From Squalus acanthias (taxonomy: Eukaryota), in assembly GCA_030390025.1 (NCBI GenBank), contig CM059431.1:140494001-140558000 (forward strand): DNA of 64,000 nucleotides, given 5' to 3'. The notes beneath the pieces were generated by a model. It ran no database searches. It was not told the DNA's origin and saw only the letters and a program-made list of their open reading frames with translations. Numbering within the stretch: position 1 is the first letter of the stretch; each line of letters begins with the position of its first letter. Below, piece by piece: positions 13,500-38,009 of the stretch. The translations under genes were made by a program, and so were the position numbers.

Positions 13500-14750
13500 G
13501 CTGTTCCCCACATATCTCTATTGGATACTCAACTTTTCACCATGTTTATTAATGATTTGGATGGAGCAACAGGGTGCTGTAGATCCAAGTTTGAAGATGA
13601 AACTAAGTTCGGATGCATTGTATTAGTGCAAATGGGAGCTGGACCTAACCAAATGAATAGAGACAGATGAAATAACAACAGAAAACGCTGCAAAAACTCA
13701 GCAGGCCAGGCAGCATCCGTGGAGAGAGAAACAGAGACTGATGAAATGTGTGGCAAAATTATGGCAAATCGTGTTCATTGTTCAAAAGTGTGACATCATG
13801 CACTTTGGAAACAAGTAAGATAATTCGGAGTAATTTAGAAATCATGTTGAGGAACCAAAAGGTTTGTGAGTCCCAGTTCACAAATCATTAAAAACAAGCA
13901 TACATGTACAAAAAGGCATTCAGTAAAGTCCCGCATAAGAGACTGTTCGCTAAGATTGACGCTCAAGGAATTGAAGGCAAATTACTCTCTTGGTTAGGAA
14001 ATTGGTTGAGCGATAGGTTACAGAGTGTACGGATAATTGGCAGGTAGCATAATTGGCAGGATATGACTCGTGGTGTCCCTGGGGGATCTGTATTGAGCCT
14101 GAACTATTCATCCTAGTTATTAGATGATGGGATTCAGAGCCACATATCCAAGTATGAAGATGACACAGAGATAGGCAACATTGCATGCAGTGCAGATGAA
14201 CGTATAACATTACAAATATATTGATAGATTAAGTGAATTTGCAAAACTGTGGCAAATGAATTTCAATATAGGCAAGTGTGAGGTATCAAGTTAGGACCTA
14301 AAAACAATAGATCAGAATATATGCTAAATGGTGAAAAGCTGGAATCAGTGGAGGTCGAAAGAGACTTAAGGGTCCTTGCAAATATATCATTTAATTATCG
14401 TGGACAGGTACAGAAAATAATCAAAAAATACTAATGTAATGCTGGTATTTATCTCTGGAGGACTACAGTAAAAGGGGTAGAAGTTATGCTACAGCTATAC
14501 AACCCCTGGTTAGATGTTCAGTTCTCTCCACCACACCTTGCATTAGTCTTTCAGACTGAAGCGTAGATTTACTCGAATGATATATCGACTCCAAGGGTTA
14601 AATTTCTAGGAGAGATTACACAAACTACGGTTGCATTCCCTAGAAGTTAGAAGGTTAATGGGCGATTTGATAGAAGTTTTCAAGATATTAAGGGGAACTG
14701 ATAGAGTAGATAAAGATAAACTATTTCGGATGGTTGGCGAGTCTGGGACT
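13500..14750 (+). mobile_element. Degenerate CR1 RT fragments, with a short PLE-type repeat at ~13672-13740
   Basis: Remnants of the KVPH, GVP.GS and DDT motifs and of the C-terminal RGDLIEV segment. Confidence 0.7.
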
Positions 14751-14759
14751 GGGCAGGGC

Positions 14760-15646
14760 CAATAAAGTCAGGGCTCCCGAGATGACGAAAAAGATAGTGT
14801 ATATGATGATGCAGAAAAAGATCTCGTATGGCAGACATCAGGTTGCAAAGACATAAGCGAATCTGGCTATATATAGAATGTTAACAGGAGAAGTGAAAAG
14901 GAAAATAAGAGGGGCAAGGAGACGACATGAGAATAGAATGGCAACCAACATAATAGGTAATCCAAAAGTCTTCTATAGGCATATAAATAGTAAAAGGGTA
15001 GTAAGAGGAGGAGTGGGGCCAATTAGGGACCTAAAAGGAGACACAGTCATGGAGACAAAGCGTATGGCTGAGGTAATAAACGAGTACTTTGTCTCTGTCT
15101 TCACCAAGGAAGAGGTTGCTGACATAGACATAGTGAAGGAGGAGGTAGTGGAACATTTGGTATTATAAAAGATTGATAAAGACGAGGAATTAGAAAGGCT
15201 GGCTCTATTAAAGTAGATAAAACACCAGGTGCGGATAGGATGCATCCCACGAGATTGAGGGAATTGAGTGCAGAAATCGCAGAGGTACTGGCCATAATAT
15301 TCCTAACCTCCATAGATACGTGGGTGGTGCCAGTGGACTTGAGAATTGTAAATGTTAAACTATTTTTTAAAAAGTGTGTGAGGATAAACCCAGCAACAAT
15401 AGCCCAGTCCGTTTAACCTCGGTAGTGGGAAGCATTTAGAAACAGTAATCAGGGACAAAATTAACAGTAACTTCGATAGGTGTCGAAAATTAAGGAAAGC
15501 CAGCACGGATTTGTTAATGGCAATTCGTGTTTAATCAACTTAATGGAGTTATTTGATGAGGTATCAGAACGTGCTGATGAGGGTAATGCGGTTGACGTCG
15601 GGTACATGGATTTCGAAAATGCGTTTGTGAAAGTGCCACATAATAG
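14760..15646 (+). mobile_element. CR1 LINE 'A', left part (continues at 20427-20706 and beyond the LTR)
   Basis: ORFs 14878-15168 and 15480-15662 are CR1 ORF2 segments. The sequence breaks at KVPH (acataatag) and resumes at 20427 with the same 9-mer. Confidence 0.85.
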
Positions 15647-16105
15647 AAACATAGAAACATAGAAGATAGGAGCAGGAGTAGGCCATTCGGCCCATCGAGC
15701 CTGTTCCGCCATTTAATGAGATCATGGCAGATCATCCAAATTCAGTACCCTGTCCCTGTTTTCTCTCCTTATCCCTTGAACCCTTTAGACATAAGAAATA
15801 TATTTAAATCCTTCTTGAATTTATTTAATGAATTGGCCTCAACTGCCTTGTGTGGTACAGAATTCCACAGGTTCACCACTCCCTGGGTGAACAAATTCCT
15901 CCTCATCTCAGTCCTAAATGGCTTACACCTTATCCTTAGACTGTAACCCCTGGTTCTGGACTCCCCCGCCATCGGGAACATCCTTCCTGCTTCTAGCCTC
16001 TCTAGTCCTGTTAGAATTTTATAAGTTTCAATGAGATCACCTCTCATTCTTCTAAACTCTAGCGAATATAAGCCTAATCGACCCAATCTCTCCTCATACG
16101 TCATT
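15647..16105 (-). mobile_element. CR1 LINE 'B', 3' end
   Basis: ORF 15769-16104 is the CR1 ORF2 C-terminus. (tagaaaca)n tail at 15647. Joins 18565-20426 if element C is removed. Confidence 0.85.
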
Positions 16106-18560
16106 CACAGAAACATAGAAACATAGAAGATAGGAGCAGGAGTCGGCCATTCTGCTCCGCGAGCCTGCTCCGCCATTCGATGAGATCATGGCTGATCATC
16201 CAAACTCAGTACCCTGTACCTGCCTTCTCCCCATACCCCTTGATACCTTTAGCTTTATGAAATATATCTGACTCATTCTTTAATATATTTAATGAGTTGG
16301 CCTCAACTAACTTCTGTGGCAGAGAATTCCACAGGTTCACCACTCTCTGGGTGAAGAATTTCTCCCTCATTTCTGTCCTAAATGGCTTGCCCCTTAACCT
16401 TAGATTATGACCCCTGGTTCTGGACTCTCCGACCACCGGGAACATTCTTCCTGCATCTAGATTGTCCAGATCTGTCAGAATTGTATATGTTTCGATGAGA
16501 TCCACTCTCATTTTCTATACTCCAGCAAGTATAAGCCGAATCGACCCAATCTCTCCTCATATTTCATTCCTGCCATCCCAGGTATCAGCCTTGTGAATCT
16601 TCGCTGAACTCCTTCCATGGCAAGATCATCCTTCCTCAGATAAGGCGACGAAAACTGCACACAGTACTCAAAGTGTGGTCTCACCAAGGCCCTGTACAAC
16701 TGCATCAAGACATCCCTGTTCCTATACTCAAACCCTTTCGCTATGAAGGCCGACATACCATTTGCCTTCTTCAGCGCCTGCAGCACCTGCATGCTTACTT
16801 TCAGCGACTGGTGCACAAGGCCACAGAGGTCTCGTTGCACTTCCCCTTCTCCCAATCTATTGCCATTCAGATAATAGTCTGCCTTTCTGTTTTTGACATC
16901 AAAGTGGATAACCTCGCACTTATCCACGTTATATTGCATCTGGCACTCTTCTGCCCACTCACCCAACCTGTCCAAATCATCCTGTACTTTCTCGGTATCC
17001 TCCTCGAAGCACATACGCTCACCCAGCTTTATGTCATCTGCAAACTTGGAGATATTACATTTAGTTCCCTTATCTACATCATTAATGTATATTGTGAATA
17101 GCTGGGGTCCAAGGACCGATTCCTGCGGTACCCCACGAGTCACTGCCTGCCACTCGGAAAAAGACCCATTAATTCCTGCTCTCTGCTTTCTGTCCGCCAA
17201 ACCAGTTCTCTATCCAATTCAATACCTTGCCCCCAATCCCATTTGCCTTAAATTTACATGCTAATCTCATATGCGGGACCTTATCGAAAGCCTTTTGAAA
17301 GTCCAAATACACCACATCTACTGGTTCTCCCTTATCTATTTTCCCAGTTACATCCTCAAAAAATTCCAGTAGCTGTGTCAAGCACGATTTACCTTTTGTA
17401 AATCCATGTTGACTTTGTCCGATCCTGTCACTGTTTTTCAAGTGCTCAGCTATTACATCCTTTATAATGGACTTTAGCATTTTCCCCACTACCGATGTCA
17501 GGCTTACCGGTCTGTAATTCCCCGCTTTCTCTCTACCACACTTCTTTTAATAGTGGGGTAACATTAGCTACCATCCAATCCATGGGTACAGTTCCAGATT
17601 CCATCGAATGTTGGAAGATGATCAGCAATGCATCTACTATTTCTAGGGCCACTTCCTTAAGTACCCTAGGATGTAGATTATCAGGCCTTGGGGATTTATC
17701 GACCTTCAATCCCGTCAATTTCCCTAACACCATTTCCCTGCAAATACTGATTTCTTTCAGTTCCTCCCTTTCCTTGTACCCTATGTTCTCCAACATCTCT
17801 GGGAGGTTATTTGTGTCCTCCTTTGTGAAGACAGAACCAAAATATGCATATAATTGGACTGCCATTTCTTTGTTACCCATTATAACTTCCCCCGCTTCTG
17901 ACTGCAAGGGACCTACACTTGATTTCACTAATCTTTTTCTGTTCACATATCTATAAAAGCTCTTACAGTCAGTTATTATGTTCCCTGCAAGCTTACTTTC
18001 ATATTCTGTTTTCCCCTTCTAAATTAATCCCTTTGTCCTCCTTTGTTGAATCCTGAACTGCTCCCGATCCTCAGGGTTACCGCTTTATCTGGCCAATTTA
18101 TATGCCCTCTCCTTGGATCTTATGCTATCCCTAACTTCCCTTGTTAGCCACGGTTGAGTTACCCTTTTTGTTTTATTCTTATGCCACACTGGGATGAACA
18201 CATTCTGTAGTTCATCCATGCAGTCCTTGAATGTTTGCCATTGCCTATCCAACGTCAACCCTTTGAGTGACATTCCCCAATCAATCCTACCCAATTCGCG
18301 CCTCATACCATCGTAGTTTCCTTTATTTAAATTCAGGACCCTAGTCTCTGATTCAACTACTTCAGTCTCCATCCTAATGAAGAATTCTATCATATTATGA
18401 TCACTCTGACCAAGGGGCCCCGTACAACAAGATTGCAAATTAATCCTTTCTCGTTACATTATACCCAGTCTAAGATGGCCTGATCTCTGGTTGGTTCCTC
18501 GAAATATTGTTCCAGAAAACCATCCCGTAAACACTCTAGGAATTTCTCCTCCACAGTATT
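16106..18560 (-). mobile_element. CR1 LINE 'C' nested in CR1 'B'
   Basis: Has its own tail at ~16110. Frameshifted RT ORFs 16206-18438 (FADD motif). Very similar to the CR1 at 1-2003. Confidence 0.88.
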
Positions 18561-18564
18561 TTTT

Positions 18565-20426
18565 GGCTGCCATCCCAGGTATCAGTCTGGTGAATCTTCG
18601 CTGCACTCTCTCCATGGCAAGAACAGCCTTCCTCAGATAAAGTGACCAAAACTGCACACAATACTCAAAGTGTGATCTCACCAAGGCCCTGTACAACTAC
18701 AGGGTCCTTGCTCCTGTACTCGAATCCTCTCTCTATGATGGCTAACATACCATTTGCCTTCTTAACCGTCTGCTGCACTTGCATGCTTACTTTCAGGGAC
18801 TGGTGCACAAGGACACCCAGGTCTCGTTGCACTTCCCCTTTCCCAATCTATTGCTGTTCAGATAATAATCTGTCTTCCTGTTTTTGCCACCAAAGTGGAT
18901 AACATCACATTTATCCACATTATACTGCATTTGGCATGTATCTGCAAATCACTCAACCTGTCCAAATCATACTGGAGTTTCTCTGCATCATCCTCACAGC
19001 ACACACGCCCAACCAGCATTGTTTCATCTGCAAACTTGGAGATATTACATCTACTTCCCTCGTCTAGATCATTTATATATATTGTGAATAGCTGGGCTCC
19101 TAGCAACGATCCCTGCGGTACACCACTAGTCACTGCCTGTCACTCGGAAAAAGACCCGTTTATTCCAACATTTTGCTTCCTGTCTGCCAATCAGTTCTCT
19201 ATCCAAGACAGTACCTTACTACCAATCCCGTGTGCTTCAACTTTGCACGCTAATCTATTTTGCGGGACTTCATCGAAAGCCTTCTGAAAGTCCAAATACA
19301 CCACATCCACTGGTTCTCCCTTATCTATTCTACCAGTTACATCCTCAAAAAATTCCAGTAGATTGGTCAAGCATGATTTACCTTTTGTATATCCATGTTC
19401 ACTTTGTCCGATCCTGTCACTGTTTTCCAAGCGCTCTGCCATTACATCTTTTATAATGGACTCTAGCATTTCCCCCACTACTGATGTCAGACTTACCGGT
19501 CGAATATTCCCCGTTTTCTCTCGGCCACCTTTTTTAAATAGTGGGGTTACATTAGCTATCCACCAATCCATGCCAACTGTTCCAGAGTCTATAGAATTTT
19601 GGAAGATGACCAGCAATGCATCTACTATTTCGAGGGCCACTTCCTTAAGTGCCCTAGGATGTAGATTATCAGGCCCTGGGGATTTATCGGCCTTTAATCC
19701 TGTCAATTTCCCGAACAGCATTTCCCTACAAATACTGAATTCATTCAATTCCTCCCTCTCATTAGACCCTACGTTCGCCGACATCTCTGGGAGGTTATTT
19801 GTGTCCTCCTTTGTGCAGACAGAACCAAAGTATGTATTTAATTTGACTGCCATTTCTTTGTTCCCCATTATAAAATCCCCTGATTCTGACTGCAAGGGAC
19901 CTACACTTGACATCACTTATCTTCTTCTCTTCACATATTTATAGAAGCCTTTACAGTCAGCTTTTATGTTCCCTGTATGCTTACTCTCATAATCTATTTT
20001 CCCCCTTTTAATTAATTCCTTTGTCCTCCTTTGCTGAATCCTAAACTGCTCCCAGTCCTCAGGTTTGCTGCTTTTTCTGGCCAAATTATATGTCCTCTCA
20101 TTGGATTTTATGCTATCCTTAATTTCCCTTGTTAGCCACGTTTGAGTCACTCCTTTTGTTTTATTTTTATGCTAAACAGGGATGAACAGATTCTGTAGTT
20201 CATCCATGCGATCTTTAAACGTTTGCCATTGCCTATCCACCACCAACCCTTTAAGGAACGATTCCCAATTCATCCTAGCCAACTCGTGCTTCATACCATC
20301 GTAGTTTCCTTTATTTAAATTCAGGACCCTAGTCTCTGAGTTAACTAATTCACTCTCCATTATATTATGATCGTTCCTCCCCAAGGGGCCTCGCACAACA
20401 CGATTGCTAATTGATCCTTTCACATT
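18565..20426 (-). mobile_element. CR1 LINE 'B', 5' part
   Basis: ORFs 18858-19133, 19191-19916, 19917-20150 and 20172-20423 are consecutive CR1 ORF2 pieces. Confidence 0.88.
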
Positions 20427-20706
20427 ACATAATAGGCTTTGTAAAAATTTGAAGCTAATGGAATGAAATGGACAGTGGCAGCATGGATACTAAATTGGCT
20501 AGGTGAAAGGAAACTGAGAGTAGTCGTGAACGGTTGTTTTTCGGACAAGAGGACGCTAGATAGTGGTGTTCCCCAGGGGTCCGTTCTCGGACCACTGATT
20601 TTCTTGATATATATTAATGACTTGGACGTTGGTGTTCAGGGCACTATTTCAAACTTTGTAGACGACACAAAACTTGGAACAATAGTGAACAATGCGGAGG
20701 ATAGAG
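20427..20706 (+). mobile_element. CR1 LINE 'A', middle part, target of the ERV insertion
   Basis: ORF 20463-20711 (SGVPQGSVLGP, FVDDTKL) is cut at AGAG (20703-20706) by the LTR. Confidence 0.88.
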
Positions 20707-22373
20707 TGTAAGGGTTTTTGTGTGTGTGACACGCCTGAGGCTCTGTGCGTAGCCTGGGTGCTCGTGCGAGGTTAGGCCTTGTTGCCTGTTCTGGTCTCCA
20801 GCCAGCCTGGTATCACTAGACACCTGTGAGTGGTTCGACCCACTCGCCCTTACGGTTCTGACACTGGACTTAGATGCGAGAGCAATAACGCAGAGAAAAC
20901 TCAGGTAGACCCGGTTGAATAGTGCGAAATGGAAAATCTTTATTGCATATTATTCAAGATTACGAAATACATGTCATAAGCACAGATTAATGACAGTACA
21001 ATCTTACACGCAGGTATGTAACTAATTTTAGGGAAACGAGGAGCGCATGACACATCGAAAAAGGGGGCACACATTACAATTATCCTTAAAACTTCAACCC
21101 TCCCCTATTAATACCTGACCTAAACTAGATTTGTAGGATCGAGACTCATGCTCACCACTCGTGATAACTCGGAGAATTCCGAAACTCTGCTCGGATGTTT
21201 TTACCGCAGCACCTGACCACCCACGTGTTGATTTGGGGTCTCTGTACCCCACTTGTTTACACGTTTCTGCTCCGGCTAGCAGGCTGGACCGTCTGCTGTC
21301 ATGAAGATCTGTGTTGTCCTCGGAGTTCCGACACGACTCGAAAAAATAGTCTTCCTGTGCCCTCACGCCAGTTTGTAAAGCTCAAAGAATGGTCTTCCTG
21401 GGCAAGGAAAGTGTTTATTCGACCTACAGGCGCGGTCGGGGCTTACTGACCGTGGCGATACGTATGGTCGTCTTCTTCTCTTCTCATCTCATCTCATCTC
21501 ATCTCATCTCATCTCATCTCGGGCCTTCGGTTCCAACACCGTTTACCGACTTCTCGGGATGGTGTGCCCGTTTCAAGGCTTCACAGCCCAGTTCCACACA
21601 GATCTTCGCGGCAAGCCACGAGGTCGATCCTGGCGGATCAGAAAGTTCAATAGTCTTCTAGCAAGTCGAGCAGCAAGGAGTCAAGAGACAGCGTCGCAGG
21701 CGAAGAGGCAAGAGACAGATGCAAGAGCAAGCGGCAAGAGACAGATGGACGGTTGTACCTTTACAGTTATAGTGCTGCAATTCCTCTTTTCCCGCCCAAT
21801 CTTAATGTCTTTTCTTTTGTCAGGGTTTTGGCGCTCAAACTTCTTGTATAGGGTGATCTCCGTTTTAATGGGTTTCGGTGATACTTGTAACTGTCTGAGT
21901 ACCCGTTAATACTTCTCCCATTGTGTAACCAGTCAGTATTCTCCCTGGAGGGCTTTTGGGGCTTCCAAATGTTTCTGTAACTACCCGCAAACGGCTCTCT
22001 CATCGTAGAGTCGTGGGGATTTTGCATATTAATGTCTCTGGATGGGTTCTTGATCGCTCTGTACAATAGCCCTTATTCGCAGCTGGGAGACCGATTCCAG
22101 TATTTATGTGTAAAATGCAAACCCATTATGTCTTGTGAATTATCTCAAATGTGCTGAGTCTTGTCCGATCTCGCACAAATGTTTATTGGAACGCCATCTT
22201 GTCTGCTTATCGAAAAGTCTAGAATGTTCTGCCACGAGGCGTGGCGGCCATTTTACAGGATGCTTGTGTCCACTTTGAAAACCTGACAGCATTCTGCTGA
22301 AATAAAGCTGTTTGTACGAAACTATGTGTCTCCTCCTTATTTATAAAATCGCGATAATATTGCGAATTCTACA
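20707..22373 (-). repeat. 3' LTR of ERV (1667 bp)
   Basis: TGTA...TACA termini. Near-identical to 32215-33870. Minus-strand AATAAA at 20939-20944. Internal (TCTCA)n microsatellite at ~21480-21520. Confidence 0.95.
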
Positions 22374-23228
22374 AGAGATAGACTTCAGGAAGACAGGCTG
22401 GTGAAATGGTCGGACACGTGTCAGATGAAATTTAATGCAGAAAAGTGTGAAGTAATATATTTCGGTAGAAAGAATGAGGAGAGAACATATAAACTAAAGG
22501 GTACGATGCCAAAGTGGTTGCACGAATAGAGGGACCTGGGGCTATGTTTGCACAAATCGTTGAAGGTGGCAGGGCAGCTTGAGAAAGCAGTTACAAAAGG
22601 ATTACGGGATCGTGGGCTTCATAAATAGAGGTATAGAGTTAGAAATCAAGGACGTTATGATGAACCTATATAAAACACTGCTTCGGCACCAACTGGAGTA
22701 CTGTGTCCAATTCTGGGCACCACACTTTAGGAAGGATGTGAAGGCCTTCGAGAAGGTACAGAAAATATATACGATAATGATTCTAGCAATGAGGGTCATC
22801 AGTTACTTGAATAGACTGGAGAAGCTGTGGTCATTCTCCTTGGAGCAGAGAAGATTGAAAGGAGATTTAATAGAGGTGTTCAAAATCATGAGTGACTGGA
22901 CAGATTAGTTAGAGAGAATCTGTTCCCATTGACAGTATGTTCGAGAACCAGAGGACACAGATTAAGGTGATTGGCAAAAGAACCAAAGGCGACAAGAGAA
23001 AAAACTTTTTTACGCGGCGAGTGGTTAACATCTGGAATACACTGCCAAAATGGAGTTGGAGGAGTATCTGAGGGGGGGAAATGCAGAGCTAAGGGGAAGC
23101 GGCAGGGGAGTGGGACTAGCTGAGAGTCGGTACTGTCTTGATGTGCCGAATGGCCTGCTTGCGTGCTGTAACCATTCTATGGTTCTATGTAACTGACTAG
23201 ATGGGCTGCTTCACTTTCTCCTTTTCCT
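22374..23228 (+). repeat. Duplicated host flank (CR1 'A' 3' part), copy lying inside the provirus
   Basis: About 99% identical by eye to 33871-34724. Starts with AGAG and ends at ...ctttctccttttcct, where it joins ERV sequence just downstream of the env stop. Confidence 0.93.
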
Positions 23229-23272
23229 TCCGAGGCGCACGTGGCAAACGGGAGTGACGCCATTTTGTCTGG

Positions 23273-25624
23273 TTACACGGTGCTTTCATCGTGCACGCGC
23301 ACGTAGCGTTCTCGCCACTCTCCCGTGTTTTCGTTCTTGGTGAGGCGTTTGCCTCTTTTACAATGCACGACCAATAAGTATACCACAATAAACACTTGGC
23401 ATACAACTAAAATGTGGGAGGCTATCCTAATCCAGGAAGGCACTTCAATGTTGGTGAACAGATTCCACCATGGTGGAATTACTATGTCCAGAATTTCTGT
23501 CCCTATCTCGACAGTCTTCTGTTCTAGTGTGTAAAAATGTTTTTGTGATACCGCGACGGCTTTTAAAAGCTTGGTGAGGTGTTCAGGGAGAGGGGGAATG
23601 AGGTATCCGAAATGCGCGACGAATTGCTGCAGGTCGGTGAAGTTCTCTTTTACGGTAAGATGAACTGTGGATGGTTCAGGGATTGGGACAATTCGCTGTT
23701 GTGCTACTTGAACTTCCGCCCTGGGTTTGAAACAGAAACTGCTGTCACTCACCGGACACCGGCTACGGTTTCCATGTTGGTAGTGTTGCGCTGCAGTGGT
23801 AACACAATATGTTCCACCCCCGATGTATGCTACCTGTGGAGGCACATGATCTTGTGCCATTGCCTCCATGGTGCAATTCATGGGCTTGGCGCCAGCCGTT
23901 CTGAACCCGCACTGTGGTGTTAAAAAGGCATTCAAGTGCTGGGGACACAGTATTATGTGTGCTCCCCTGCCACGACAACCAGAGAGATCTGTACCTGTCA
24001 TCGTTTGCTCCCAGCGGATGATGTAAGGTGGAACCGCTGCATAGCGAATGTGGGCTCCCCCCTGAATGACACCAATGTTCTCTACTCGATACACCGGGGC
24101 GGGCTTTGTTGTGTCGCCCAAAACCGGCATACGTAACACTATACCCATAATGGTATGGTTTGATCGTCCGCAGTCCACGGGGACTGGGTATGCTTCTGAA
24201 GCTAGCCTGAGCTGGCACGGGCTTAATGTGTTCTGAAAAGGGTTGAGCGCCTGCAGGTGTTTGTTACTTATCCAGGACGGGACCAAACCTTGTTTTAAAT
24301 CCTCCAAATTACTGCAGCCCTCACCGAGTAACCACGCCCCGTAAAGCACGCACACCTCATTCTGCGCAGCCTGATTGGACGCATTCCGATCTTCCCTGAT
24401 CAGGGCATTTACCGTTCTCGCGTGTTTCTCCAGCTCTGCTTTAATTTCCTTTAAGTGGAGAGTCATGGCCTGGTCCTCGTGTAACCCAGACCCAACCACC
24501 TTATTTTCATCTGTGAGAATGCTTTTTAATTGCGTTTTTAAGCCATTAATCTGGGTCTGCAGCTCCACGCTGTCTAGAGCATTGACCACAGATGTACCTG
24601 TGTTGAAAGCAGTGAACGCGTCGTTCACAACACCCCTTCTTTGCCTCCCCACCTGATCCAAAACTTCATGTGGTGCGGTGTACAAACTTGTTTTATCAAT
24701 TTCCGTGAAATCGAACTCATAAAATTGTCTGAACATCTTGGTCAACAGGACCTGATACAACTGTTCCGTCTTTTTGGGGCACCACTCTGGTAACCGCACC
24801 TCGGTGAGATTTAAAATCACCGAGGCCACCACGTAATGTACCCCCTGAAATAGTATCTGGTCTGTTGGGACCAGTACCAAACCATTCCCGGGTCCCTTAC
24901 TGGTTTTAGGGCACCCTTCTTCCTTAGCTAGAACCACCGGAATCGTGGGCGGGGCTTTGCGTGGGCGCGTAATGAGTTCAGTGGCATTTACTGGGATCGG
25001 GGAGTATGGAGCTCCGCACCCCCTGGTGCTCGCATCCCACCTCATCCCCTGTCCGTTATCCTGCCATTGATTGATGAAAAATATGGAGATGCCTTTGGGG
25101 CAAACGTACTTTGACCCCCACATACATACATAAATTCCCTCATCCGGTTCCCACCATTTGTCCCAACAGACTCGCACTTGTCCGTTTGTCCCCGTAATTG
25201 TCCGATGGGTATTATTACCCAGTCACTCCCACTTGACCGAAGAGTTCCTCATGTTTTTGCTCAGCTTTCGTAGCCACCACCATCGGCTCAATGGGACATT
25301 CCCGTTACAAGTCAAACAAATCCGTTTTCCGACGGTGACGCTGATTCTGGGTGCGATGATCCTTACTTTGGGGCACAGTAAAGAAGTCTCTTGGTAGGCA
25401 AACCCCGATGTGCTGGAATACTCAGTGGAGTTTGTTCCCAGCCATCCTGGCCACCTTCCCTTGTGGAAATAGGTGGTGGTCTCCTCCGCCTCTCGTCTTC
25501 CGGTCCCATCCACCGTGATGGGGGCCGTGTCCCCGGAGCATCCAAACACCACGACATCCTTGGTGTGGCCTCGATAGGCCAATCCACATCCGATTGCCGC
25601 GAGCAATGCTAGAATTCGTTCCAT
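23273..25624 (-). pseudogene. env: ERV envelope glycoprotein (~783 codons; one in-frame stop at 25223-25225)
   Basis: Signal peptide MERILALLAAIGCGLA, then an Ig-like motif set. Furin site RQRR (24635-24646) is followed by a hydrophobic small-residue peptide, a heptad repeat, a Cys-rich region, a C-terminal TM helix and a short tail. The two ORFs are in the same frame. Confidence 0.88.
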
Positions 25625-25913
25625 CCTTCCTTGGTTCCTATGATCAGATAGAATGAGGTAGCCAGCCTCGCAAGAGTCTCTGGCTTTTGCGAAGGGTGAG
25701 CGGGTCCCCTGACCTCGCCTCACGTAAGAAGACATGTGTGCTGGATAAACTTTAACTAATCCTATCTCTAAAACTCCCATCATTTTACCTCTTTCTATTA
25801 AGCAAAATTAAACTACCGACTTAAACCGATTTAAAACTATAACCTCATCTAAAACTATAAACTTATTCTTAACCTTAAACTGTACAGCGCCGCCCGTTCC
25901 CAGGGCGGCCCAT

Positions 25914-28900
25914 TTAAATTCTGAAAAGGCTGCCACGAGCTTTTCCCGACGGTGGGAGGGCATTGACCCCTCCCTTTGATCTGCCGCAGCCTGTTGCTGC
26001 TGCGCTGGGACTGGACTCTCCCTGGGCTGCCTTAGACTTGAGCCTACGCCTTGGGACACTCTGGGGACTTGACCATATCTTCCTGGGCTGGGTTATCCGA
26101 CCTGACCTATGGAGAGTTACCGAGGGCAGGAACTCCAGGACCGACGGACCGGGTTCCGAGACTTCCACCGTGGTGACCTGTGGTCCCACCACAGTCGCTG
26201 GCTCCGCCTCCCCTGACTCCGCCTCCCTGAACTCGGGTTCTGCAGCTTGTGGCACCGCCCTACTTGGCCCAGTAGGCGGCCCTTCACTCGCAGTCCCTAC
26301 CTCCCTCGAGGGCAAAACGTTCAAGGCGGGCGGCTCGGGCTCTGAGCCTTCTATCGCCACGCCCTGTGGTCCCCCCACAGCGGCTGGCTCCGCCTCCCCT
26401 TGCTCCTCCCCACTGCGTTCGGGACCTGCAGCTTCGGCCTCCACCCTGTGTGGATCTCTATCTGCAGCCCCTGTCTCCCCTATACCTGAATCGGTGGCGA
26501 CCCTTTCGTCCTCCGATTCCAACTCCTCCTCGCTTGTGTCACTATCTTCGTCGAGCTCCTCGAACTCTTCCTCATCTGACTCCCAACCCCCAAAAAATAT
26601 CTCACATTTTTCTAGGATGTCCTCTCCCCTGATGCAAGCTGCTTTGCCTGCCTGTGTGCCCTGTGGCCCTACCTGGGGCTGCGACTCCCCACTCGCCGGT
26701 TTGGCCCCTGTGGTTGGCCCTTGTGCACCTGGCTTATACAGTTTGCACTGATTTACGTGGAACCACTTAGTGCGCCGGGGTACCTTTACGGCGTATACCA
26801 TGGGACTCGCCTTATCTACAATGCTGTAGGGTCCCATATACAGTGGTTCCAGACTCCCTACTCTGGCGTAGTTTCTGACCATGACCTGGTCTCCCACTTC
26901 CCACTCCCGCGTTTTGCGGGGTTCCAGCAACAGGCGATTGCCCTGATGCTACCTTCCCATGTTCCCAGCCGCCTGCTCATAAACCTGCTTCAGGCGCACC
27001 AAGAGGGTCTGGACGAACTTGTCCCTGCTTATCTCTTGGAGCTGACACACAGTGAGCACCGGCGCTAGCACATGGGTGGGGGTTCGCATGATCCTCCCAG
27101 TCATCACCTCGTGCGGGGAGTACCCCGTACTTTTCGACTGACTGGCCCGGACCCCCATGAGGACTAAAGGCAGAACCTCTGCCCATTTTTGGGGCGAGTT
27201 CATAGTCTCTTTCCTCAATTTCTCCTTCAGGGTCCGGTTCATACGTTCAACAATCCCGGATGACTGGGGATTGTGTGCTACGTGCCATTTCCCTTCAATG
27301 CCCAAAAGCATGAGGGTGGTCTGCATCACCTGGCCGGTGAAATGACCCCCTTGGTCTGACTCCACAAAACGGGGGAGTCCCCACCGCGAGAACACCTCCC
27401 GGACCAAGATTTTTGCAGTACCCAGCGCCGTAGCTGTTCTACAGGGGAAGGCTTCCACCCATTTGGAAAACACATCCACCAAGACGAGGCAGTATTTATA
27501 GCCTCCCTGGGTGGTGGGCAGGGGCCCTATAGAGTCGATCTGTATCGACTGCCATGGTCCCTCTACCCTCCTGACGTGCCCCATGGGCACTTTCCTTTTC
27601 TGGGGGTCTGGGTTGTTTGCAGCGCACACGAGACAGCTTGCACAGAACTCGCGGACCTGTTCCCTGAGCCCCGGCCACCATCCCGCTTGCTCTACCCGTT
27701 GCCAGGTAACCTCGGGCCCGGGGTGCCCTGCCCCCGGTCCCTCATGAGCCAACTGGAGGAATTCCCTCCTGTGCTGCTGCAGCACAACCCACTGCTCCTC
27801 GCGGAACAGCATGCCTTCCTTAACGGAGAGGGTTGCCGTACTGTACGGACCCTCTACCTGCTTCCCCTCAGCAAGGGTTCTGAGGACTGCTTTTAGGGCG
27901 GGATCCTGGTTCTGGACGGTCTTAAGGTCTAGGGGCAATGCTACCCTGGTGTTCCCGGGATTCCCGTCCCTGCCTTGGATCGCTGCCACGGGTCTGGGCC
28001 CATAGGGGTCCCAGAAAATGCCGTTGCGGGCGCCCTCCCTGGCTAGCGCATCCGCCTGCTGATGCACTCCCCACGGGGCTCTGTGGAGGAGTGAGCCTTC
28101 ACCTTATGGATGAAAATCTCCCCTTCCTCCCCTACTGCTGCTAGGATCATTTCCAGCAAGGGCTTCACCGTTAAAGGTCGCCCGTCCGCGGAGGTATATC
28201 CACGGCGGGACCAAATGGCCAGGTATTCCGTACACGAATTGCATGTGAACATACTGTCCGAGCAAATCGTGTATGGGGTTGGGAAAATTTCTGGGTGGGT
28301 AACGACGTACACCACTGCAGACAGCTCAGCCTGCTGCACGCTCATGGTGCTGGGGAGCTTAATCGCCAGGGCAAGGTTTGCCGCAGGGTCATAAACTCCA
28401 CACCCTGTGTGTCGTTCGCCAGCGGACACTGTGCTGGAACCATCAACATAAATCTCGCGCCCAGTGGGATGTATCCCGGCCCGCAAACCTATGTTGACTT
28501 CCCACACCCCTTCCACCGAACACTGGTGGGCTGTACCGGGGTATACCAAATTGGCTGCAAGCCTGGGCTCGCAAAGACCTTTAACTCTAAGATCCATCTG
28601 GGAAAGAAGAAGGGTCCAGCGCGCAATACGCACGCTACTTACGGTCCCATCTTTAATCCTCCCATCTAGAAGCATCTTAGTTGGTGTGTGATGGGTGAGG
28701 AGAGTGATGGGAGAGAGCCCTGTGAAGATCGCTGATCATTTCACAGCCCAATGCGTGGCTAAAAGGTGCCTTTCGCAATTGGAGAAACTTCTCTCCACAT
28801 CCGTTAACACCCTGGACGAATAGACAACCGGCCTCAGCTTGCCGTGACGCTCTTGGAGCAGCACAGCGCTCAAGCTGTCCCCGCTGGCAGCTACCTCCAG

Positions 28901-30404
28901 GAAAAACTCCTTCCCCCCATCTATGGCCCCTAAAGCTGGCGCGGTCTGCAGATCCCTTTTTAACTTCTCGAAGGCTGCCTGGCAGCCCTCGTCCCAAGAC
29001 CACTCCACTCCCTTATGGAGGAGTCGGAGCAGCGGCGCCGCTGTGGCCGCATAGTCTTCGATAAAATCCCTGCAGTAACCGGTCAGTCCCAAAAAGGACC
29101 TCACACCCCTTATGGTGTTGGGAATCGGTAACTCTTGCACCGACTCCCTCCTAGCCTTATCTATGGCTCTTTCCCCAGCGCGAATGGTCAGCCCCAGGAA
29201 TTTTACTTCCTGCTGACCGATACGTGCTTTCTTAGGGTTCACTTTAAAACCCTTTCTCGCTAGCAGCTCCAATAACTCGGCCAGCAGTGGTCCATGCTCC
29301 TCCCTTGAATCCGTAAATAGGAGCAAATCATCCACGTACTGCACTATCTAATTGGGCTGACTAAACTCCTTTAAACTTCCTGCCATACACTGATGGAAAA
29401 TACTGGGGCTGTTGTGGAAACCCTGTGGCAGACAGTTCCATGTGTATTGTTGTCCTTTGAAAGTAAAGGCAAACTTGTACTGGTCCTCTCGCCGCAGCGG
29501 GATGGACCAAAAACCGTTCGAGATATCCAGCACCGTGAACGTGGTCGCGGACGCTGGGATACTCCCTATTAGGTCAGCGACTGCTGCTACCGTGGGCGCG
29601 CAGGCGGGAATGTTACTGTTAAGGACTCTGTAGTCCACCGTGGCCCTCCACGAATTATCCGGCTTCCTAACCGGCCATAATGGGGAGTTCACGTGTGTGG
29701 CTATCGGCCTCAACACGCCCTGCTGCACCAAGGAGGACATTGCTGTCTCCATATCGGGTTCTGCTTCTTTGGGGAAGTTATACTGCTTTTGGGGCCGGGT
29801 CATGGGGTCCCCATCTACGCTGACCTCAAACCCGGTAACCCTCCCACAATCGTGCTTGTGGGTTGCAAACGCGTGCATATTATCTGACACGTACGCTTGC
29901 ATGTCCGTTGGGACATCCGCGACCATAAGCCCGAGGTCGTAGCCTCCGGATGGCTTCATGGTACACAGGGCCCCTGTTTCTTCCTCCCCCGGAATTACCA
30001 CTACCTCGCCTTCTCCACCCTTGGTCCCCCAGAGACAGTGATTCCTGAGGTCCACAAGGATCCCGTGCCCCGATAGGAGATCGGACCCGAGGATACCTCT
30101 CCCACCCCCCTCTTGCCATTTCATCAGTATGCACTTCCACGTGGTGTGGAGCGCTCCTAAATGAATGGCTAGCGGAAGGGAGAACGCGCCAGCCTGTTCT
30201 TTTCCCGTGAACCCCGCTAATGTGAATGGGACCTTGGTAGATAGCGGTGAGTCAAAAGGGCTATCTGTATGAATCACGGTGCAAGAAGCTCCCGTGTCCA
30301 ACAAATAACTACCCTTCTGTTGCTCTACCTCCATCTCCACCAGGGGTTCGCTTCCACGCATCATAGCTGAGCGGACACAGGTAGACGGGCTGCGCGGGCT
30401 CTAG
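25914..30404 (-). pseudogene. pol: ERV Pol (PR-RT-tether-RNase H-IN + long C-terminal extension); 3 stops, 2 frameshifts
   Basis: PR LLDTGAS. RT LDISNGFW, LPQGFHNSP, YVDD. RNase H YVDGS/AEL/SDS/KVKAH/ADALA. IN HHCC, IDSIGP, ESDQG, VERMNRTLKE, GPY. Stops at 29348, 28736 and 26949; frameshifts near 30347 and 28065. Confidence 0.95.
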
Positions 30405-32138
30405 TCATTGGGTACTTTTGGACGGGGCTGTGGCACCTGCGGGGCCGGTAGCAACCGCCACCCTTCCATGCACACTCATGAGGGTGCGCATGGCTCCCAA
30501 CACTGATTCGATCGCGTCGGGATGGATGGGTGCACTAGCTCCCCTATCAGAGACAGGCGCCTGGGCTCGGACCACCGGATTTTTATCCCTGGAATCCTTC
30601 CAAGGGTTCCTGCAGTTCTTACGCCAGTGCCCCGTCTTCCCACACCCGTAAGAAGCATTGCTGGCCTGCGGAGCGCGGTTACCCTCCTGATGCCACTCCT
30701 TTTGAGCCGGGGCTGCGGGTCGTACCTCATGCACCTTTCCCTTAAGGGGACGTGCTCCCGTACTCCTGGTATTACGGTACCCTATCGTGAGTCAATTTAG
30801 GACCGACTCCTCTGTAGTGGCGGGGTCAGTGGGATCAAACCACGCTTTTGCCTGCTCCCTGACGGCTGGCAAACTGTTGGCTACTATACACCTGAGCCAA
30901 TGAGTTAGACCGGCGCCGTCCAAATCGGTGCGCTCTGGCGCACCTGGGCAGCTACGCTGGTATACTGGCCACAGCCTGTTGGCGAAAACCTTCGGGGGTT
31001 CTCCCTCCATCTGCACTGTTTGTCCTAGTCTAACGAACGGACCTTCATCGTCCATTCCCAACACTTCTAGGACCTCATCTCTTAGCTCCCCATAGGTATT
31101 AGTTCCCCTCTTGCTCTCGTCTGAGAGACACTGAAGGATCGAACTATCTAGTGAGAATAACAGCATTTTTGCTTTTTCTCCATCGTCGCAGCCGTTAATG
31201 GCTGCGGTTTGCTCTACTTCCCTGAAATGTACGGAAGGGTCGTCTGACTCGGCCAGCTTCCGTACGTGACTGATCATAACCCTCAGCTGGTGTGCGCTGT
31301 GAGGCAACACAAGCTGGTTGAGGAGATCCCCCTCTGCCCCATTGATTCCGTTCGGGCCCCTTTTGAAACCCGTGACCGGACACAACGGTCCCGGCTTCAC
31401 TTCTACCTCAGTGGGCTCTTTCTTTACCTCTACCACTTCCTCCCTCACCCAGGTTGCCGAATAGCTGGGTGGCGCGGAGGGCATAGTGGCTAATACTTCC
31501 TCTGCTTTGTTCGGTGGGGATTTCTGAAATCCCTCATCTACTAGCGGCTGGTGTGCTGACGGGCTGATAAGGCACACAATGCCGTGCGCTTTGTTCACGG
31601 CCCTTTTAAGGTGCTCTATCTCTCTTTGGCAGACGCTGTGGTCGGCCCCCTGAAATTTATCCTCGAGGGCCATCTTATATGCCGCCCTAACCCCCGTTAA
31701 GCTCTCTTCCTGGGCTTTTATTTGGGCAGCTAGGGGGGCACATCGTTCCTTTAATCTACCCTCACTTAACTTTGCCTCAGTGACCTGGCACTCGAGGTAA
31801 TCTATTTTTGTTTCATGGTGGTTGGCGACTAACTGGCGTTCTTGATGCAACGCATTTAAAGTCGTGATGAGCTGCTGCCCCCCCGCGACCTTCTCGTCCA
31901 TTTCCACCACTAAACTCTTGATCTGAGCTGCCTGCGCTAAGATGACCTGGTCCGAAATTTGGACTTGTCTTTTATAGCACATCAGCCAGACCGCTTTCTC
32001 CACTGCCTTTTTATGTTCCTTGCTATCTGTCCACCTCTCGGCTGCCTCTAGTGGACGCTTATCCACCAGCAGGTCACTTATCCATTTCTTAGTCAAATTC
32101 ACTTTTCCAAACACATAATCTGCTATTCTCTCTTCCAT
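30405..32138 (-). pseudogene. gag: ERV Gag (coiled coil, late domains, capsid-like region, CCHC knuckle); one in-frame stop at 30792-30794
   Basis: ATG lies ~54 nt after the PBS. The two ORFs are in the same frame. Contains PSAPPSY and (S)YGCGKTGHWRKNC, a knuckle with its first Cys mutated. Confidence 0.88.
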
Positions 32139-32191
32139 GACATTTCACCCATTCATACCAGGGTCTAACACATTATTCTCTCGCTGCCAGT

Positions 32192-32209
32192 GTCCTGCCG
32201 CGGTCGCCA
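32192..32209 (-). promoter_or_regulatory. Primer binding site, tRNA-Arg
   Basis: Minus strand TGGCGACCGCGGCAGGAC, 5 nt after the 5' LTR. Complementary to ...GTCCTGCCGCGGTCG-CCA, which I recognise as a vertebrate tRNA-Arg(TCG) 3' end. Confidence 0.85.
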
Positions 32210-32214
32210 TTTTC

Positions 32215-33870
32215 TGTAAGGGTTTTGTGTGTGTGACACGCCTGAGGCAATGTGCGTAGCCTGGGTGCTAGTGCGAGGTTAGGCCTTGTTGCCTGTTCTG
32301 GTCTCCAGCCAGCCTGGTAGCACTAGACACCTGTGAGTGGTTCGACCCACTCGCCCTTACGGATCTGACACTGGACTTAGATGCGAGAGCAATAACACTG
32401 AGAAAACTCAGGTAGACCCGGTTGAATAGTGCGAAATGGAAAATCTTTATTGCATATTATTCAAGATTACGAAATACATGTCATAAGCACAGATTAATGA
32501 CAGTACAATCTTACACGCAGTTATGTAACTAATTTTAGGGAAACGAGGAGCGCACGACACATCGAAAAAGGGGGCACACATTACAATTATCCTTAAAACT
32601 TAAACCCTCCCCTATCAATACCTGACCTAAACTAGATTTGTAGGATGGAGACTAATGCTCACCACTCGTGATAACTCGGAGAATTCCGAAACTCTGCTCG
32701 GATGTTTTTACCGCAGCACCTGACCACCCACGTGTTGATCAGGGGTCTCTGTACCCCACTTGTTTACTCGTTTCTGCTCCGGCTAGCAGGCTGGACCGTC
32801 TGCTGTCATGAAGATCTGTGTTGTCCTCGGAGTTCCGACACGACTCGAAAAAATAGTCTTCCTGTGCCCTCACGCCAGTTTGTAAAACTCAAAGAATGGT
32901 CTTCCTGGGCAAGGAAAGTGTTTATTCGACCTACAGGCGCGGTCGGGGCTTACTGACCGTGGCGATACGTATGGTCGTCTTCTTCTCTTCTCATCTCATC
33001 TCATCTCATCTCATCTCGGGCCTTCGGTTCCAACACCGTTTACCGACTTCTCGGGATGGTGTGCCCGTTTCAAGGCTTCACAGCCCAGTTCCACACAGAT
33101 CTTCGCGGCAAGCCACGAGGTCGATCCTGGCGGATCAGAAAGTTCAATAGTCTTCTAGCAAGTCGAGCAGCAAGGAGTCAAGAGACAGCGTCGCAGGCGA
33201 AGAGGCAAGAGACAGATGCAAGAGCAAGCGGCAAGAGACAGATGGACGGTTGTACCTTTACAGTTATAGTGCTGCAATTCCTCTTTTTCCGCCCAATCTT
33301 AATGTCTTTTCTTTTGTCAGGGTTTTGGCGCTCAAACTTCTTGTATAGGGTGATCTCCGTTTTAATGGGTTTCTGTGATACTTGTAACTGTCTGAGTACC
33401 CGTTAATACTTCTCCCATTGTGTAACCAGTCAGTATTCTCCCTGGAGGGCTTTTGGGGCTTCCAAATGTTTCTGTAACTACCCGCAAGCGGCTCTCTCAT
33501 CGTAGAGTCGTGGGGATTTTGCATATTAATGTCTCTGGATGGGTTCTTGATCGCTCTGTACAATAGCCCTTATTCGCAGCTGGGAGACCGATTCCAGTAT
33601 TTATGTGTAAAATGCAAACCCATTATGTCTTGTGAATTATCTCAAATGTGCTGAGTCTTGTCCGATCTCGCACAAAAGTTTATTGGAACGCCATCTTGTC
33701 TGCTTATCGAAAAGTCTAGAATGTTCTGCCATGAGGCGTGGCGGCCATTTTACAGGCTGCTTGTGTCCACTTTGAAAACCTGACAGCGTTCTGCTGAAAT
33801 AAAGCTGTTTGTACGAAACTATGTGTCTCCTCCTTATTTATAAAATCGCGATAATATTGCGAATTCTACA
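32215..33870 (-). repeat. 5' LTR of ERV (1656 bp)
   Basis: TG...CA termini, adjacent to the PBS, flanked by AGAG. Differs in length from the other LTR by two TCTCA units and one T. Confidence 0.95.
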
Positions 33871-34724
33871 AGAGATAGACTTCAGGAAGACAGGCTGGTG
33901 AAATGGTCGGCACGTGTCAGATGAAATTTAATGCAGAAAAGTGTGAAGTAATATATTTCGGTAGAAAGAATGTGGAGAGAACATATAAACTAAAGGGTAC
34001 GATGCCAAAGTGGTTGCACGAATAGAGGGACCTGGGGCTATGTTTGCACAAATCGTTGAAGGTGGCAGGGCAGCTTGAGAAAGCAGTTACAAAAGGATTA
34101 CGGGATCGTGGGCTTCATAAATAGAGGTATAGAGTTAGAAATCAAGGACGTCATGATGAACCTATATAAAACACTGCTTCGGCACCAACTGGAGTACTGT
34201 GTCCAATTCTGGGCACCACACTTTAGGAAGGATGTGAAGGCCTTCGAGAAGGTACAGAAAATATATACGATAATGATTCTAGCAATGAGGGTCATCAGTT
34301 ACTTGAATAGACTGGAGAAGCTGTGGTTATTCTCCTTGGAGCAGAGAAGATTGAAAGGAGATTTAATAGAGGTGTTCAAAATCATGAGTGACTGGACAGA
34401 TTAGTTAGAGAGAATCTGTTCCCATTGACAATATGTTCGAGAACCAGAGGACACAGATTAAGGTGATTGGCAAAAGAACCAAAGGCGACAAGAGAAAAAA
34501 CTTTTTTACGCGGCGAGTGGTTAACATCTGCAATACACTGCCAAAATGGAGTTGTAGGAGTATCTGAGGGGGGGAAATGCAGAGCTAAGGGGAAGCGGCA
34601 GGGGAGTGGGACTAGCTGAGAGTCGGTACTGGCTTGATGTGCCGAATGGCCTGCTTGCGTGCTGTAACCATTCTATGGTTCTATGTAACTGACTAGATGG
34701 GCTGCTTCACTTTCTCCTTTTCCT
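33871..34724 (+). mobile_element. CR1 LINE 'A' 3' part (original flank of the ERV)
   Basis: Continues the CR1 broken at 20706 (LEYCVQFWAPHFRKD; tail ttctatggttctat) and runs on into unique sequence. Confidence 0.9.
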
Positions 34725-35019
34725 GTGTAACAGGCCCGAGAGGCTGTCACAATAAGTCGGTGGCGTGTCTCCTAACCATAAGCTTCACTCACATCGGAAT
34801 TTCGGTCATGTCTTTCCACTTTCCTTCCTGTTCCACACTGCAGTTTGCAGCTTCATTTTCTACAGGTACCCAGAGTCAATGCAAACGTGAATCTAATGCT
34901 ACATAAAGGGGATATTTCCGTTCACCTGGTATTGTTTAAAATAACCATCCTACTGTTTTCTTGAACAGTGAACTAATCAAAGCTGCATCAAGAACTGACA
35001 CTGAGCTCTAATGTTGGAT

Positions 35020-37869: not shown

Positions 37870-38009
37870 CAAAAAGAAAATAAGAAAATACTGCAAATGC
37901 TGGAAATCTAAAATAAAAACAGAAAATGCAGGTGATACTCAGCAGGTCAGGCAGCATCTGTGAAGAGAGAAAGAGAGTTAACTTTTAAGGTCGATGATCT
38001 TTCGTCAGA
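37870..38009 (-). mobile_element. Short Penelope-like repeat with 11-bp target-site duplication
   Basis: attattttgta at 37859-37869 and 38010-38020. Contains a degenerate CTGACGA...hammerhead-type core on the minus strand. Confidence 0.65.

What the first reader, a model, noticed from the sequence alone, without database searches (positions are those of the whole stretch)
22374..23272. 855 bp of host flank copied into the provirus where the PPT should be
Seen: the left LTR is flanked on both sides by AGAG, like a solo LTR. It is followed by the same CR1 flank (22374-23228) that follows the right LTR (33871-34724). That flank joins viral sequence ~45 nt past the env stop, in a purine run (minus strand cggaagg|aaaaggagaaag). 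By-eye counts: ~16 LTR-LTR substitutions in the first ~555 bp, ~8 in the remaining ~1110 bp, and ~8 differences in the 855-bp flank. Inference: the U3 half of the 3' LTR plus flank was copied from the 5' end after integration. This could be a repair template switch that overshot and rejoined by purine microhomology, or a tandem duplication followed by LTR-LTR recombination. The 3' LTR is then chimeric, whole-LTR dating would underestimate the age, and the PPT-LTR junction is destroyed.
Basis: partly seen in the sequence, partly recalled or inferred. Interest (0 to 1): 0.7.

Follow-up and report, generated by a model that had tools for sequence, protein, structure and literature searches.

The report
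Provirus carrying its own host flank
A dead endogenous retrovirus in a cartilaginous-fish genome has 855 bases of its own neighbouring host DNA copied inside it, most likely a one-off DNA-repair accident of a known kind that also makes the provirus look younger than it is.

Summary
20707-23228 and 32215-34724 are a 2.5-kb direct repeat (98.3%): LTR plus 855 bp of host LINE flank. The left LTR has the 4-bp target duplication on both sides, and the flank copy joins viral DNA 44-46 nt past the env stop. The junction probably has 2 nt of microhomology. Its purine run is mostly host DNA, and no viral polypurine tract stands before the 3' LTR. The element is a high-copy foamy-like or Loki-like ERV, broken in gag, pol and env. 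Divergence is 16/555, 8/1112 and 7/855. The step has p=0.008 per base, but 0.09 when three adjacent double changes count once. Four to five premature stops suggest the provirus is older than the flank duplication (p about 0.01). Best reading (0.47): repair began by homology between the LTRs, copied past the 5' LTR into the flank and ended by microhomology joining, as in long-tract gene conversion. Tandem duplication followed by LTR-LTR deletion (0.22) gives the same structure. No listed contig bridged the junction in heavily cut read tables, so misassembly (0.11) remains open. One locus, known mechanisms, modest interest.

The parts
20101..20702 (+). Left host flank: part of a LINE reverse-transcriptase frame (CR1-type; the family label is recalled)
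   Evidence: Translation and collinear match to another LINE copy at 48474-48200
20703..20706 (.). 4-bp target site duplication, left copy
   Evidence: joint 20704->22377 in runs X1 and X3 has the spacing of one copy of the 4 bp
20707..22373 (-). 3' LTR (1667 bp), framed by the target duplication like a solo LTR; 20707-21261 differs 2.9% and 21262-22373 differs 0.7% from the 5' LTR
22374..23228 (+). Extra copy of 855 bp of right host flank: target duplication, LINE 3' part with its tail at about 23175-23190, and about 40 bp beyond
   Evidence: 99.1% to 33871-34724; tail motif
23214..23231 (-). 18-nt composite purine run across the junction; 15 nt also in the host copy; 23227-23228 probably shared by host and virus
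   Evidence: four X7 contigs align to the viral side from 23227 (table 7)
23229..23272 (-). 44 nt of viral sequence after the env stop; no purine run of 9 or more besides the junction run
23273..25625 (-). env, one premature stop at 25223-25225; the 649-aa open part has an RQRR motif and is predicted to fold like paramyxovirus F
25914..30400 (-). pol (protease, RT, tether RNase H, RNase H, integrase, SH3, low-complexity tail); stops at 29348-29350, 28736-28738, 26949-26951 and a frame change near 28065
30405..32138 (-). Probable gag, with an in-frame stop at 30792-30794 (no homologue checked; no Pfam match)
   Evidence: the gag label rests on position
32192..32209 (-). Primer binding site, 5 nt from the LTR (tRNA-Arg type, recalled, not tested)
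32215..33870 (-). 5' LTR (1656 bp)
33871..34724 (+). Original right flank (854 bp), starting with the target duplication and running on into further host DNA
   Evidence: X3 record 12 runs from this stretch into non-viral DNA

Best explanation
A normal provirus inserted first into a LINE, making the 4-bp duplication (shown). Later a break or collapsed fork in or near the 3' LTR was repaired by invading the 5' LTR, on the sister chromatid or the same molecule (inferred). Synthesis ran through the U3 side of the 5' LTR and 855 bases on into host flank, about 2 kb in all (the copied extent is shown, the route inferred). This is long-tract gene conversion with non-canonical termination, or the equivalent replication template switch. 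It leaves a 3' LTR whose U5-side third is the original and whose rest is a younger copy of the 5' LTR. It has no function; it is a repair scar in a dead provirus.
For: The structure is exact: LTR plus flank repeated, one target site, one LINE split. Copy direction fits extension of a + strand 3' end from the left LTR through the right LTR. The U3-side LTR (8/1112) and the flank (7/855) diverge equally (Fisher p=0.80), and the U5-side 555 bp more (16/555; change-point p=0.008). Five premature stops in 7746 coding sites: expected 1.1-1.2 at the flank's divergence (P>=5 0.006-0.008) and 4.3-4.6 at the 555-bp divergence; with the four homologue-checked stops only, P>=4 0.012-0.016. Both LTRs share three listed alleles in the first 555 bp that most family contigs lack, as expected for one insertion. 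Precedent: copying of several kb ended by microhomology joining when termination falls outside homology (PMC5104497, passages).
Against: The step falls to p=0.09 (LTR only 0.13) when three adjacent double changes count once. The 16 left differences are 12 transversions, and one pair is TC/AA, a type linked to polymerase zeta multinucleotide mutation (PMC4158752 abstract), so local mutability may explain part of it. Listed differences between the left LTR and the family also crowd the same third (6 of 10, p=0.076; list cut to 40 of 203), which age alone would not give. Flank and whole LTR do not differ significantly (p=0.25). Stops may be inherited from a defective parent, and the whole-LTR rate is not rejected (P 0.07-0.11). 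Two nt of microhomology is weak and rests on 4 contigs at 0.68 agreement from a run of unstated organism. The distance from the junction to the LTR in intact copies is unknown. No listed contig bridges 23228/23229.
Confidence: 0.47

Rival explanations
1. Two steps: an 11.5-kb tandem duplication of internal region, 5' LTR and 855 bp of flank, joined by microhomology, then ordinary LTR-LTR recombination that reduced the first provirus to a solo LTR.
For: Gives the same structure and the same divergence step. Both steps are common: solo-LTR formation (PMC6298018, passages) and tandem LTR structures that switch between tandem, single and solo states (PMC11899658, passages).
Against: Needs two events. 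The duplication breakpoint falls within 46 nt of the env end by chance, which is unlikely if the LTR begins close by (about 60 nt in the published Xenopus Loki element); that distance is unknown for this family.
Confidence: 0.22
2. Assembly artefact: a solo-LTR haplotype and a proviral haplotype were merged, or a chimeric read was followed.
For: None of the 32 listed pieces (of 82,303) bridges 23228/23229, and the best runs hold only 0.54-0.60 of the words. The family is very high in copy, which hampers assembly.
Against: A merge would need a join on 2 nt of overlap that also drops the polypurine tract, with no gap (0 N). Haplotype merges join at long shared sequence (general knowledge). The contig tables are cut and filtered, so absence shows nothing.
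Confidence: 0.11
3. Exchange between homologous chromosomes: a solo-LTR allele, broken 855 bp into the right flank, was joined to a proviral allele just past env.
For: Gives the same structure; solo and proviral alleles coexist in populations (PMC6298018, passages). The 0.8% flank difference could be allelic.
Against: Needs an out-of-register non-homologous join between homologues. It has no specific support over the sister or intramolecular route.
Confidence: 0.08
4. Reverse-transcription route: an RNA begun in host DNA upstream of the 5' LTR was copied past U3 into the flank, RT jumped to the end of env, the composite purine run primed the plus strand, and the cDNA recombined back into its parent locus.
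For: The junction sits at the start of a 15-nt host purine run; positions starting 15 or more purines are 0.03% of the minus strand. Its last 9 bases match the foamy-virus tract printed in PMC6669568 at 7 of 9 and are followed by TG; such a match within 20 sites has about 3% chance. Yeast LTR elements integrate into existing copies without integrase (cited in PMC11899658).
Against: These features were noticed after the fact. The run lacks the five-G end seen in two published Loki tracts, and this family's own tract is unknown. It needs a read-in transcript, enzymes supplied in trans, and cDNA recombination into the parent locus, none shown in a vertebrate by my searches. The purine run is also present beside the 5' copy as plain host DNA.
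Confidence: 0.07
5. A solo LTR captured the internal region and the U5 side of an LTR from a different family copy (ectopic provirus or cDNA), so that the chimeric LTR is the 5' one.
For: Also predicts a step near position 555.
Against: The two LTRs share alleles at 20889, 21058 and 21118 that 78-100% of family contig depth lacks. Most family contigs are 90-95% alike to this stretch, against 97% between the two left thirds.
Confidence: 0.03

Closest known systems
Long-tract gene conversion with non-canonical termination in mouse ES cells (Hartlerode et al. 2016, PMC5104497; abstract and passages)
   Same: Homology-started copying of kilobases between direct repeats, ended outside homology by microhomology joining; leaves a partial duplication of sequence beyond the repeat.
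   Different: Shown in an engineered reporter with a known break. Here it is inferred from one germline fossil, with LTRs as the repeats.
Solo-LTR and provirus dimorphism by LTR recombination (PMC6298018; passages)
   Same: The left LTR with target duplication on both sides looks like a solo LTR.
   Different: The internal region and a second LTR persist downstream, behind a duplicated flank.
Tandem LTR-retrotransposon structures sharing an LTR (PMC11899658; passages)
   Same: Rearrangement between the LTRs of one insertion; assembly artefact had to be excluded with long reads.
   Different: Those have LTR-internal-LTR-internal-LTR with no host DNA inside. This has two LTRs, one internal region and 855 bp of host flank inside.
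HERV-K (HML-2) loci with long or pseudo target duplications (PMC5488345; first quarter and passages)
   Same: Long host duplications beside an ERV (111-250 bp), possibly from later rearrangement.
   Different: There the duplicated host DNA frames the element. Here a true 4-bp duplication is kept and the extra flank lies between the 3' LTR and env.
Intra-element LTR gene conversion that biases LTR dating (PMC7251063; abstract)
   Same: Part of the LTR pair is reset, so whole-LTR divergence understates age.
   Different: Ordinary conversion ends inside the LTR; here the tract runs out into host DNA and leaves a visible junction.
Foamy-like ERVs of sharks and Xenopus (PMC5512871; passages) and lokiretroviruses (PMC7947760; parts 1-2 of 4 and supplement searches)
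   Same: gag-pol-env between LTRs, dual RNase H, F-like Env; RT and integrase best match foamy-virus structures.
   Different: Which lineage this family belongs to was not settled; no tree with labelled references could be run.

Membership tests
LTR-initiated long-tract conversion / template switch with microhomology end | Copied tract begins inside the repeat and runs on into unique flank of the donor repeat | tested here: met
   LTR plus 855 bp of the right LTR's flank repeated
LTR-initiated long-tract conversion / template switch with microhomology end | Copied part of the repeat and copied flank are equally young, the uncopied part older | tested here: inconclusive
   0.72% and 0.82% against 2.88%; p=0.008 per base, 0.09-0.18 with clusters merged
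LTR-initiated long-tract conversion / template switch with microhomology end | Microhomology or inserted bases at the far junction | tested here: inconclusive
   About 2 nt, from one loose-end row (4 contigs, 0.68 agreement); chance 16%
LTR-initiated long-tract conversion / template switch with microhomology end | One event, with no three-LTR intermediate | not testable with these tools
   No whole genome held; no population haplotypes
Solo LTR | Single LTR framed by the target duplication | tested here: met
   AGAG on both sides of 20707-22373
Solo LTR | Internal region and second LTR gone from the locus | tested here: not met
   Internal region 23229-32214 and LTR 32215-33870 present
Tandem LTR element (shared LTR) | Three LTRs, two internal regions, no host DNA inside | tested here: not met
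   Two LTRs, one internal region, host flank inside
Independent insertion of an element with extended LTRs (RT capture) | Own target duplication at the outer ends of the extended repeats; purine tract before the 3' repeat only | tested here: not met
   No AGAG right of 34709-34724; purine run present at both copies; flank continuous with the left LINE
Lokiretrovirus | gag, pol, env between LTRs; tether plus second RNase H | tested here: met
   Pfam RT_RNaseH_2 then RNase_H
Lokiretrovirus | Env like paramyxo/pneumovirus F with basic cleavage site | tested here: met
   Foldseek top hit hPIV3 F, E 1.2e-11, TM 0.35, model pLDDT 63; no Pfam match. Foamy Env shares this fold (PMC11468914 abstract), so it does not separate the two groups
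Lokiretrovirus | RT groups in the Loki clade | not tested
   No labelled Loki proteins among stored sequences. By eye the RT motif after DYR differs from the one Loki passage seen
Foamy-like ERV (shark / Xenopus FLERV) | RT and integrase closest to foamy virus | tested here: inconclusive
   Best PDB hits are foamy for RT N-part (1e-32 vs 2e-20 MLV) and integrase (1e-32), but MLV for the RT C-part and tether (5e-33 vs 7e-18); similarity, not a tree

The most novel reading that the evidence does not exclude
The flank capture went through reverse transcription: a chance purine run made at the host-virus join served as a new plus-strand primer, giving a cDNA with LTRs extended by about 840 bp of host LINE DNA, which recombined back into its parent locus. 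That would be a route by which retroviral LTRs grow by taking in upstream host DNA, and a case of integrase-independent cDNA recombination in a vertebrate germline.
Probability: 0.07. Interest if true: 0.75.

Novelty: new variant of a known kind. Interest (0 to 1): 0.3.

Why it matters
If real, it is a natural germline record of a repair outcome known mainly from reporters: recombination started between LTRs and ended outside them. It adds a fourth outcome beside solo LTR, tandem element and plain conversion, and one that dates itself, since the duplicated flank gives the age of the event. Whole-LTR dating would give 1.4% where the unreset part gives 2.9%, about half the age. Scanning assemblies for LTRs with a target duplication on both sides followed by an internal region would count such events. 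As a single dead locus it has no shown function.

Tried and rejected
No whole genome is held, so intact copies could not be read. Reads: 4 of 24 listed runs were laid on 20300-24600, all as contigs. Shown were 32 of 82,303 pieces, 15 of 73 joints, 24 of 2003 loose ends and 40 of 203 letter differences. No shown piece bridges 23228/23229 and no shown joint links the LTR end to env; such holes prove nothing. X3 record 12 runs from the flank into non-viral DNA, which fits the right-hand copy under every model. Searches for relatives' DNA: env against metagenome contigs 0 of 59 candidates, viral contigs 0 of 14; a 17-base LTR-end pattern gave 70 loci, 0 of 70 similar by BLAST. Env had no Pfam or PDB sequence match. 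No tRNA gene in the window, no Rfam match in 19000-36000. A central purine tract that would reveal the family's tract was not evident among purine runs of 9 or more. Reading the X7 loose end as the LTR start was considered: it matches the LTR end at 11 of 24 letters, two of them assumed; not adopted, not excluded. An independent second insertion was rejected because both LTRs share one target site. An inserted element with extended LTRs was rejected (see membership test). The scan's notes hold no look-alike. Paper searches for this structure found no description of it; subscription journals are largely missing from that library. The Loki supplement was cut when stored and only searched by term.

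Full report
Observation. Self-BLAST of the window shows 20707-23228 repeated at 32215-34724, 98.3% over 2522 columns. The repeat is an LTR (1667 and 1656 bp) plus 855 and 854 bp of host DNA. The left LTR has AGAG on both sides; the right LTR has the primer site on its left and AGAG on its right. The provirus reads on the minus strand, so the left LTR is its 3' LTR. On the + strand the order is: left flank, LTR, flank copy, internal region, LTR, flank, further host DNA. The window holds no N.

One insertion site. The left flank and the copied flank translate as consecutive parts of a LINE reverse transcriptase and match another LINE copy in the window collinearly (20428-20704 to 48474-48200, 22391-22636 to 48178-47926). 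Contigs in runs X1 and X3 join 20704 to 22377 with one letter between, the spacing of one copy of the 4 bp; they are probably other LINE copies, not the empty allele. So the flank copy arose after, or at least not before, a normal integration. The label CR1 is recalled.

The element. Pol carries protease, RT, a tether-type RNase H, a second RNase H, integrase and SH3. Env homologues come from a skate and a sawshark, and the closest named integrases from sharks, so the host is a cartilaginous fish. The open 649-aa env stretch is predicted to fold like paramyxovirus F (E 1.2e-11, TM 0.35, pLDDT 63). That is a lokiretrovirus hallmark (PMC7947760) but is shared by foamy Env (PMC11468914 abstract). 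RT N-part and integrase best match foamy-virus structures, the RT C-part MLV. The lineage is unsettled; earlier notes of this scan use both labels. Summed contig depth of 1e5 over LTR and env, against tens to a few hundred for single joints, shows a very high copy number.

The junction. The env frame ends at 23273-23275; 44 virus-only bases follow. Identity with the host copy runs to 23228. Four contigs of run X7 align to the viral side from 23227 and continue in other letters, U-rich on the RNA strand (agreement 0.68). If that row is right, host and virus share 2 nt, which 16% of random joins would show. The 18-nt purine run is a composite: 15 nt are host DNA also found at 34710-34724. Two published Loki elements have a short tract ending in five G, two bases before the 3' LTR, one of them about 60 nt after the env stop (supplement passages); foamy viruses have a 9-nt tract there (PMC6669568 passage). 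Nothing viral stands before this 3' LTR, so the tract is lost. How much else was lost is unknown, as no intact copy could be read.

Divergence. Substitutions are 16/555 (2.9%, 95% interval 1.7-4.6), 8/1112 (0.7%) and 7/855 (0.8%). A change-point scan puts the step at LTR position 555 (support 441-732) with permutation p=0.008. Three of the left differences are adjacent pairs; counted once each, p=0.09, and 0.18 with a 10-nt window. The left set is 4 transitions to 12 transversions, and one pair is TC/AA, a type tied to polymerase zeta (PMC4158752 abstract). Of 10 listed differences between the left LTR and the family, 6 lie in the same third (p=0.076; list cut to 40 of 203). So local mutability may add to the step. 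Flank and whole LTR (24/1667) do not differ significantly (p=0.25).

An independent clock. The internal region has three stops and one frame change in pol and one stop in env, each crossed by homologue alignments, and one probable stop in gag. With 4% of substitutions making stops, 7746 sites give 1.1-1.2 expected at the flank's divergence (P of 5 or more 0.006-0.008), 2.1-2.3 at the whole-LTR rate (0.07-0.08) and 4.3-4.6 at the 555-bp rate. With the four checked stops only, the values are 0.012-0.016, 0.09-0.11 and 0.43-0.48. The provirus thus looks older than the duplication, unless it inherited stops; earlier notes report helper-dependent defective lineages in this genome (not tested here).

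Mechanism. Best (0.47): a broken or stalled 3' end in the 3' LTR invaded the 5' LTR, synthesis ran about 2 kb through U3 and 855 bases of flank, and the end was joined by microhomology to the internal region. Mouse reporter work shows this class: copying of several kb, ended by microhomology joining or added bases when termination falls outside homology (PMC5104497 passages). If the LTR part of the new strand re-annealed to the broken LTR, its flank tail would be held next to the sequence just past the LTR, which would explain a join near the env end; this is inference. Tandem duplication of 11.5 kb and later LTR-LTR deletion (0.22) and an exchange between a solo allele and a proviral allele (0.08) give the same product. 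An ectopic donor (0.03) is unlikely, since both LTRs share alleles at 20889, 21058 and 21118 that most family contigs lack. A reverse-transcription route with the composite run as a new primer (0.07) rests on after-the-fact features: the join is at the start of a rare purine run (0.03% of positions) with a 7 of 9 match to the foamy tract, about 3% by chance within 20 sites. Misassembly (0.11) is open: none of the 32 listed pieces of 82,303 bridges the junction, though a haplotype merge would not normally join on 2 nt.

Known relatives. Solo LTRs (PMC6298018), tandem elements sharing an LTR (PMC11899658), long or pseudo target duplications of HERV-K (PMC5488345) and LTR conversion that biases dating (PMC7251063 abstract) each share a part. 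None has host flank between env and the 3' LTR. Three paper searches and the scan's notes found no description of this layout; the library lacks most subscription journals.

Verdict. The feature is real in the assembly, arose after insertion, and is most simply a repair scar of a known kind in an unusual form. The chimeric-LTR claim is plausible but not firmly shown. Interest 0.3.

Noticed in passing
window 23273-32138: F-like Env with dual RNase H in a cartilaginous fish; the Loki survey found none in 3 chondrichthyan genomes (supplement row). Earlier notes of this scan already report it for this genome.
   Followed up: partly
window 30405-30791: A degenerate zinc-knuckle-like motif near the end of gag; foamy Gag lacks one (recalled), which may bear on the family's placement.
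   Followed up: no
window 25914-26700: The integrase frame runs on into a long Glu/Pro/Ala-rich tail with an internal 141-bp repeat (26121-26261 vs 26307-26447, 72%).
   Followed up: no
window 21477-21520 and 32984-33017: TCTCA microsatellite inside the LTR, 8.8 and 6.8 copies; it changed length within the young part of the repeat.
   Followed up: no
window 32192-32214: Primer site lies 5 nt from the LTR end; a similar AAAATGGCG stretch occurs just after the env stop.
   Followed up: no
window 2004-2177: 174-bp near-perfect palindrome (97.7%) with relatives at 13669-13736, 37885-38006 and 44711-44906; probably a small inverted-repeat transposon family.
   Followed up: no
window 1-2000, 15645-20434: Several LINE-like copies, inverted and tandem, 84-92% alike; the provirus sits in a dense LINE cluster.
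   Followed up: no
window 60175-61183 and 54691-55120: Tandem arrays: 39-bp unit x 26 with long open frames on both strands, and 51-bp unit x 8.5.
   Followed up: no
window 23125-23228 (run X3, record 12): The contig over the flank end has depth 194, above the 28-64 of most joints listed for that run, and ends 113 letters further on; the host DNA there may itself be a low-copy repeat.
   Followed up: no
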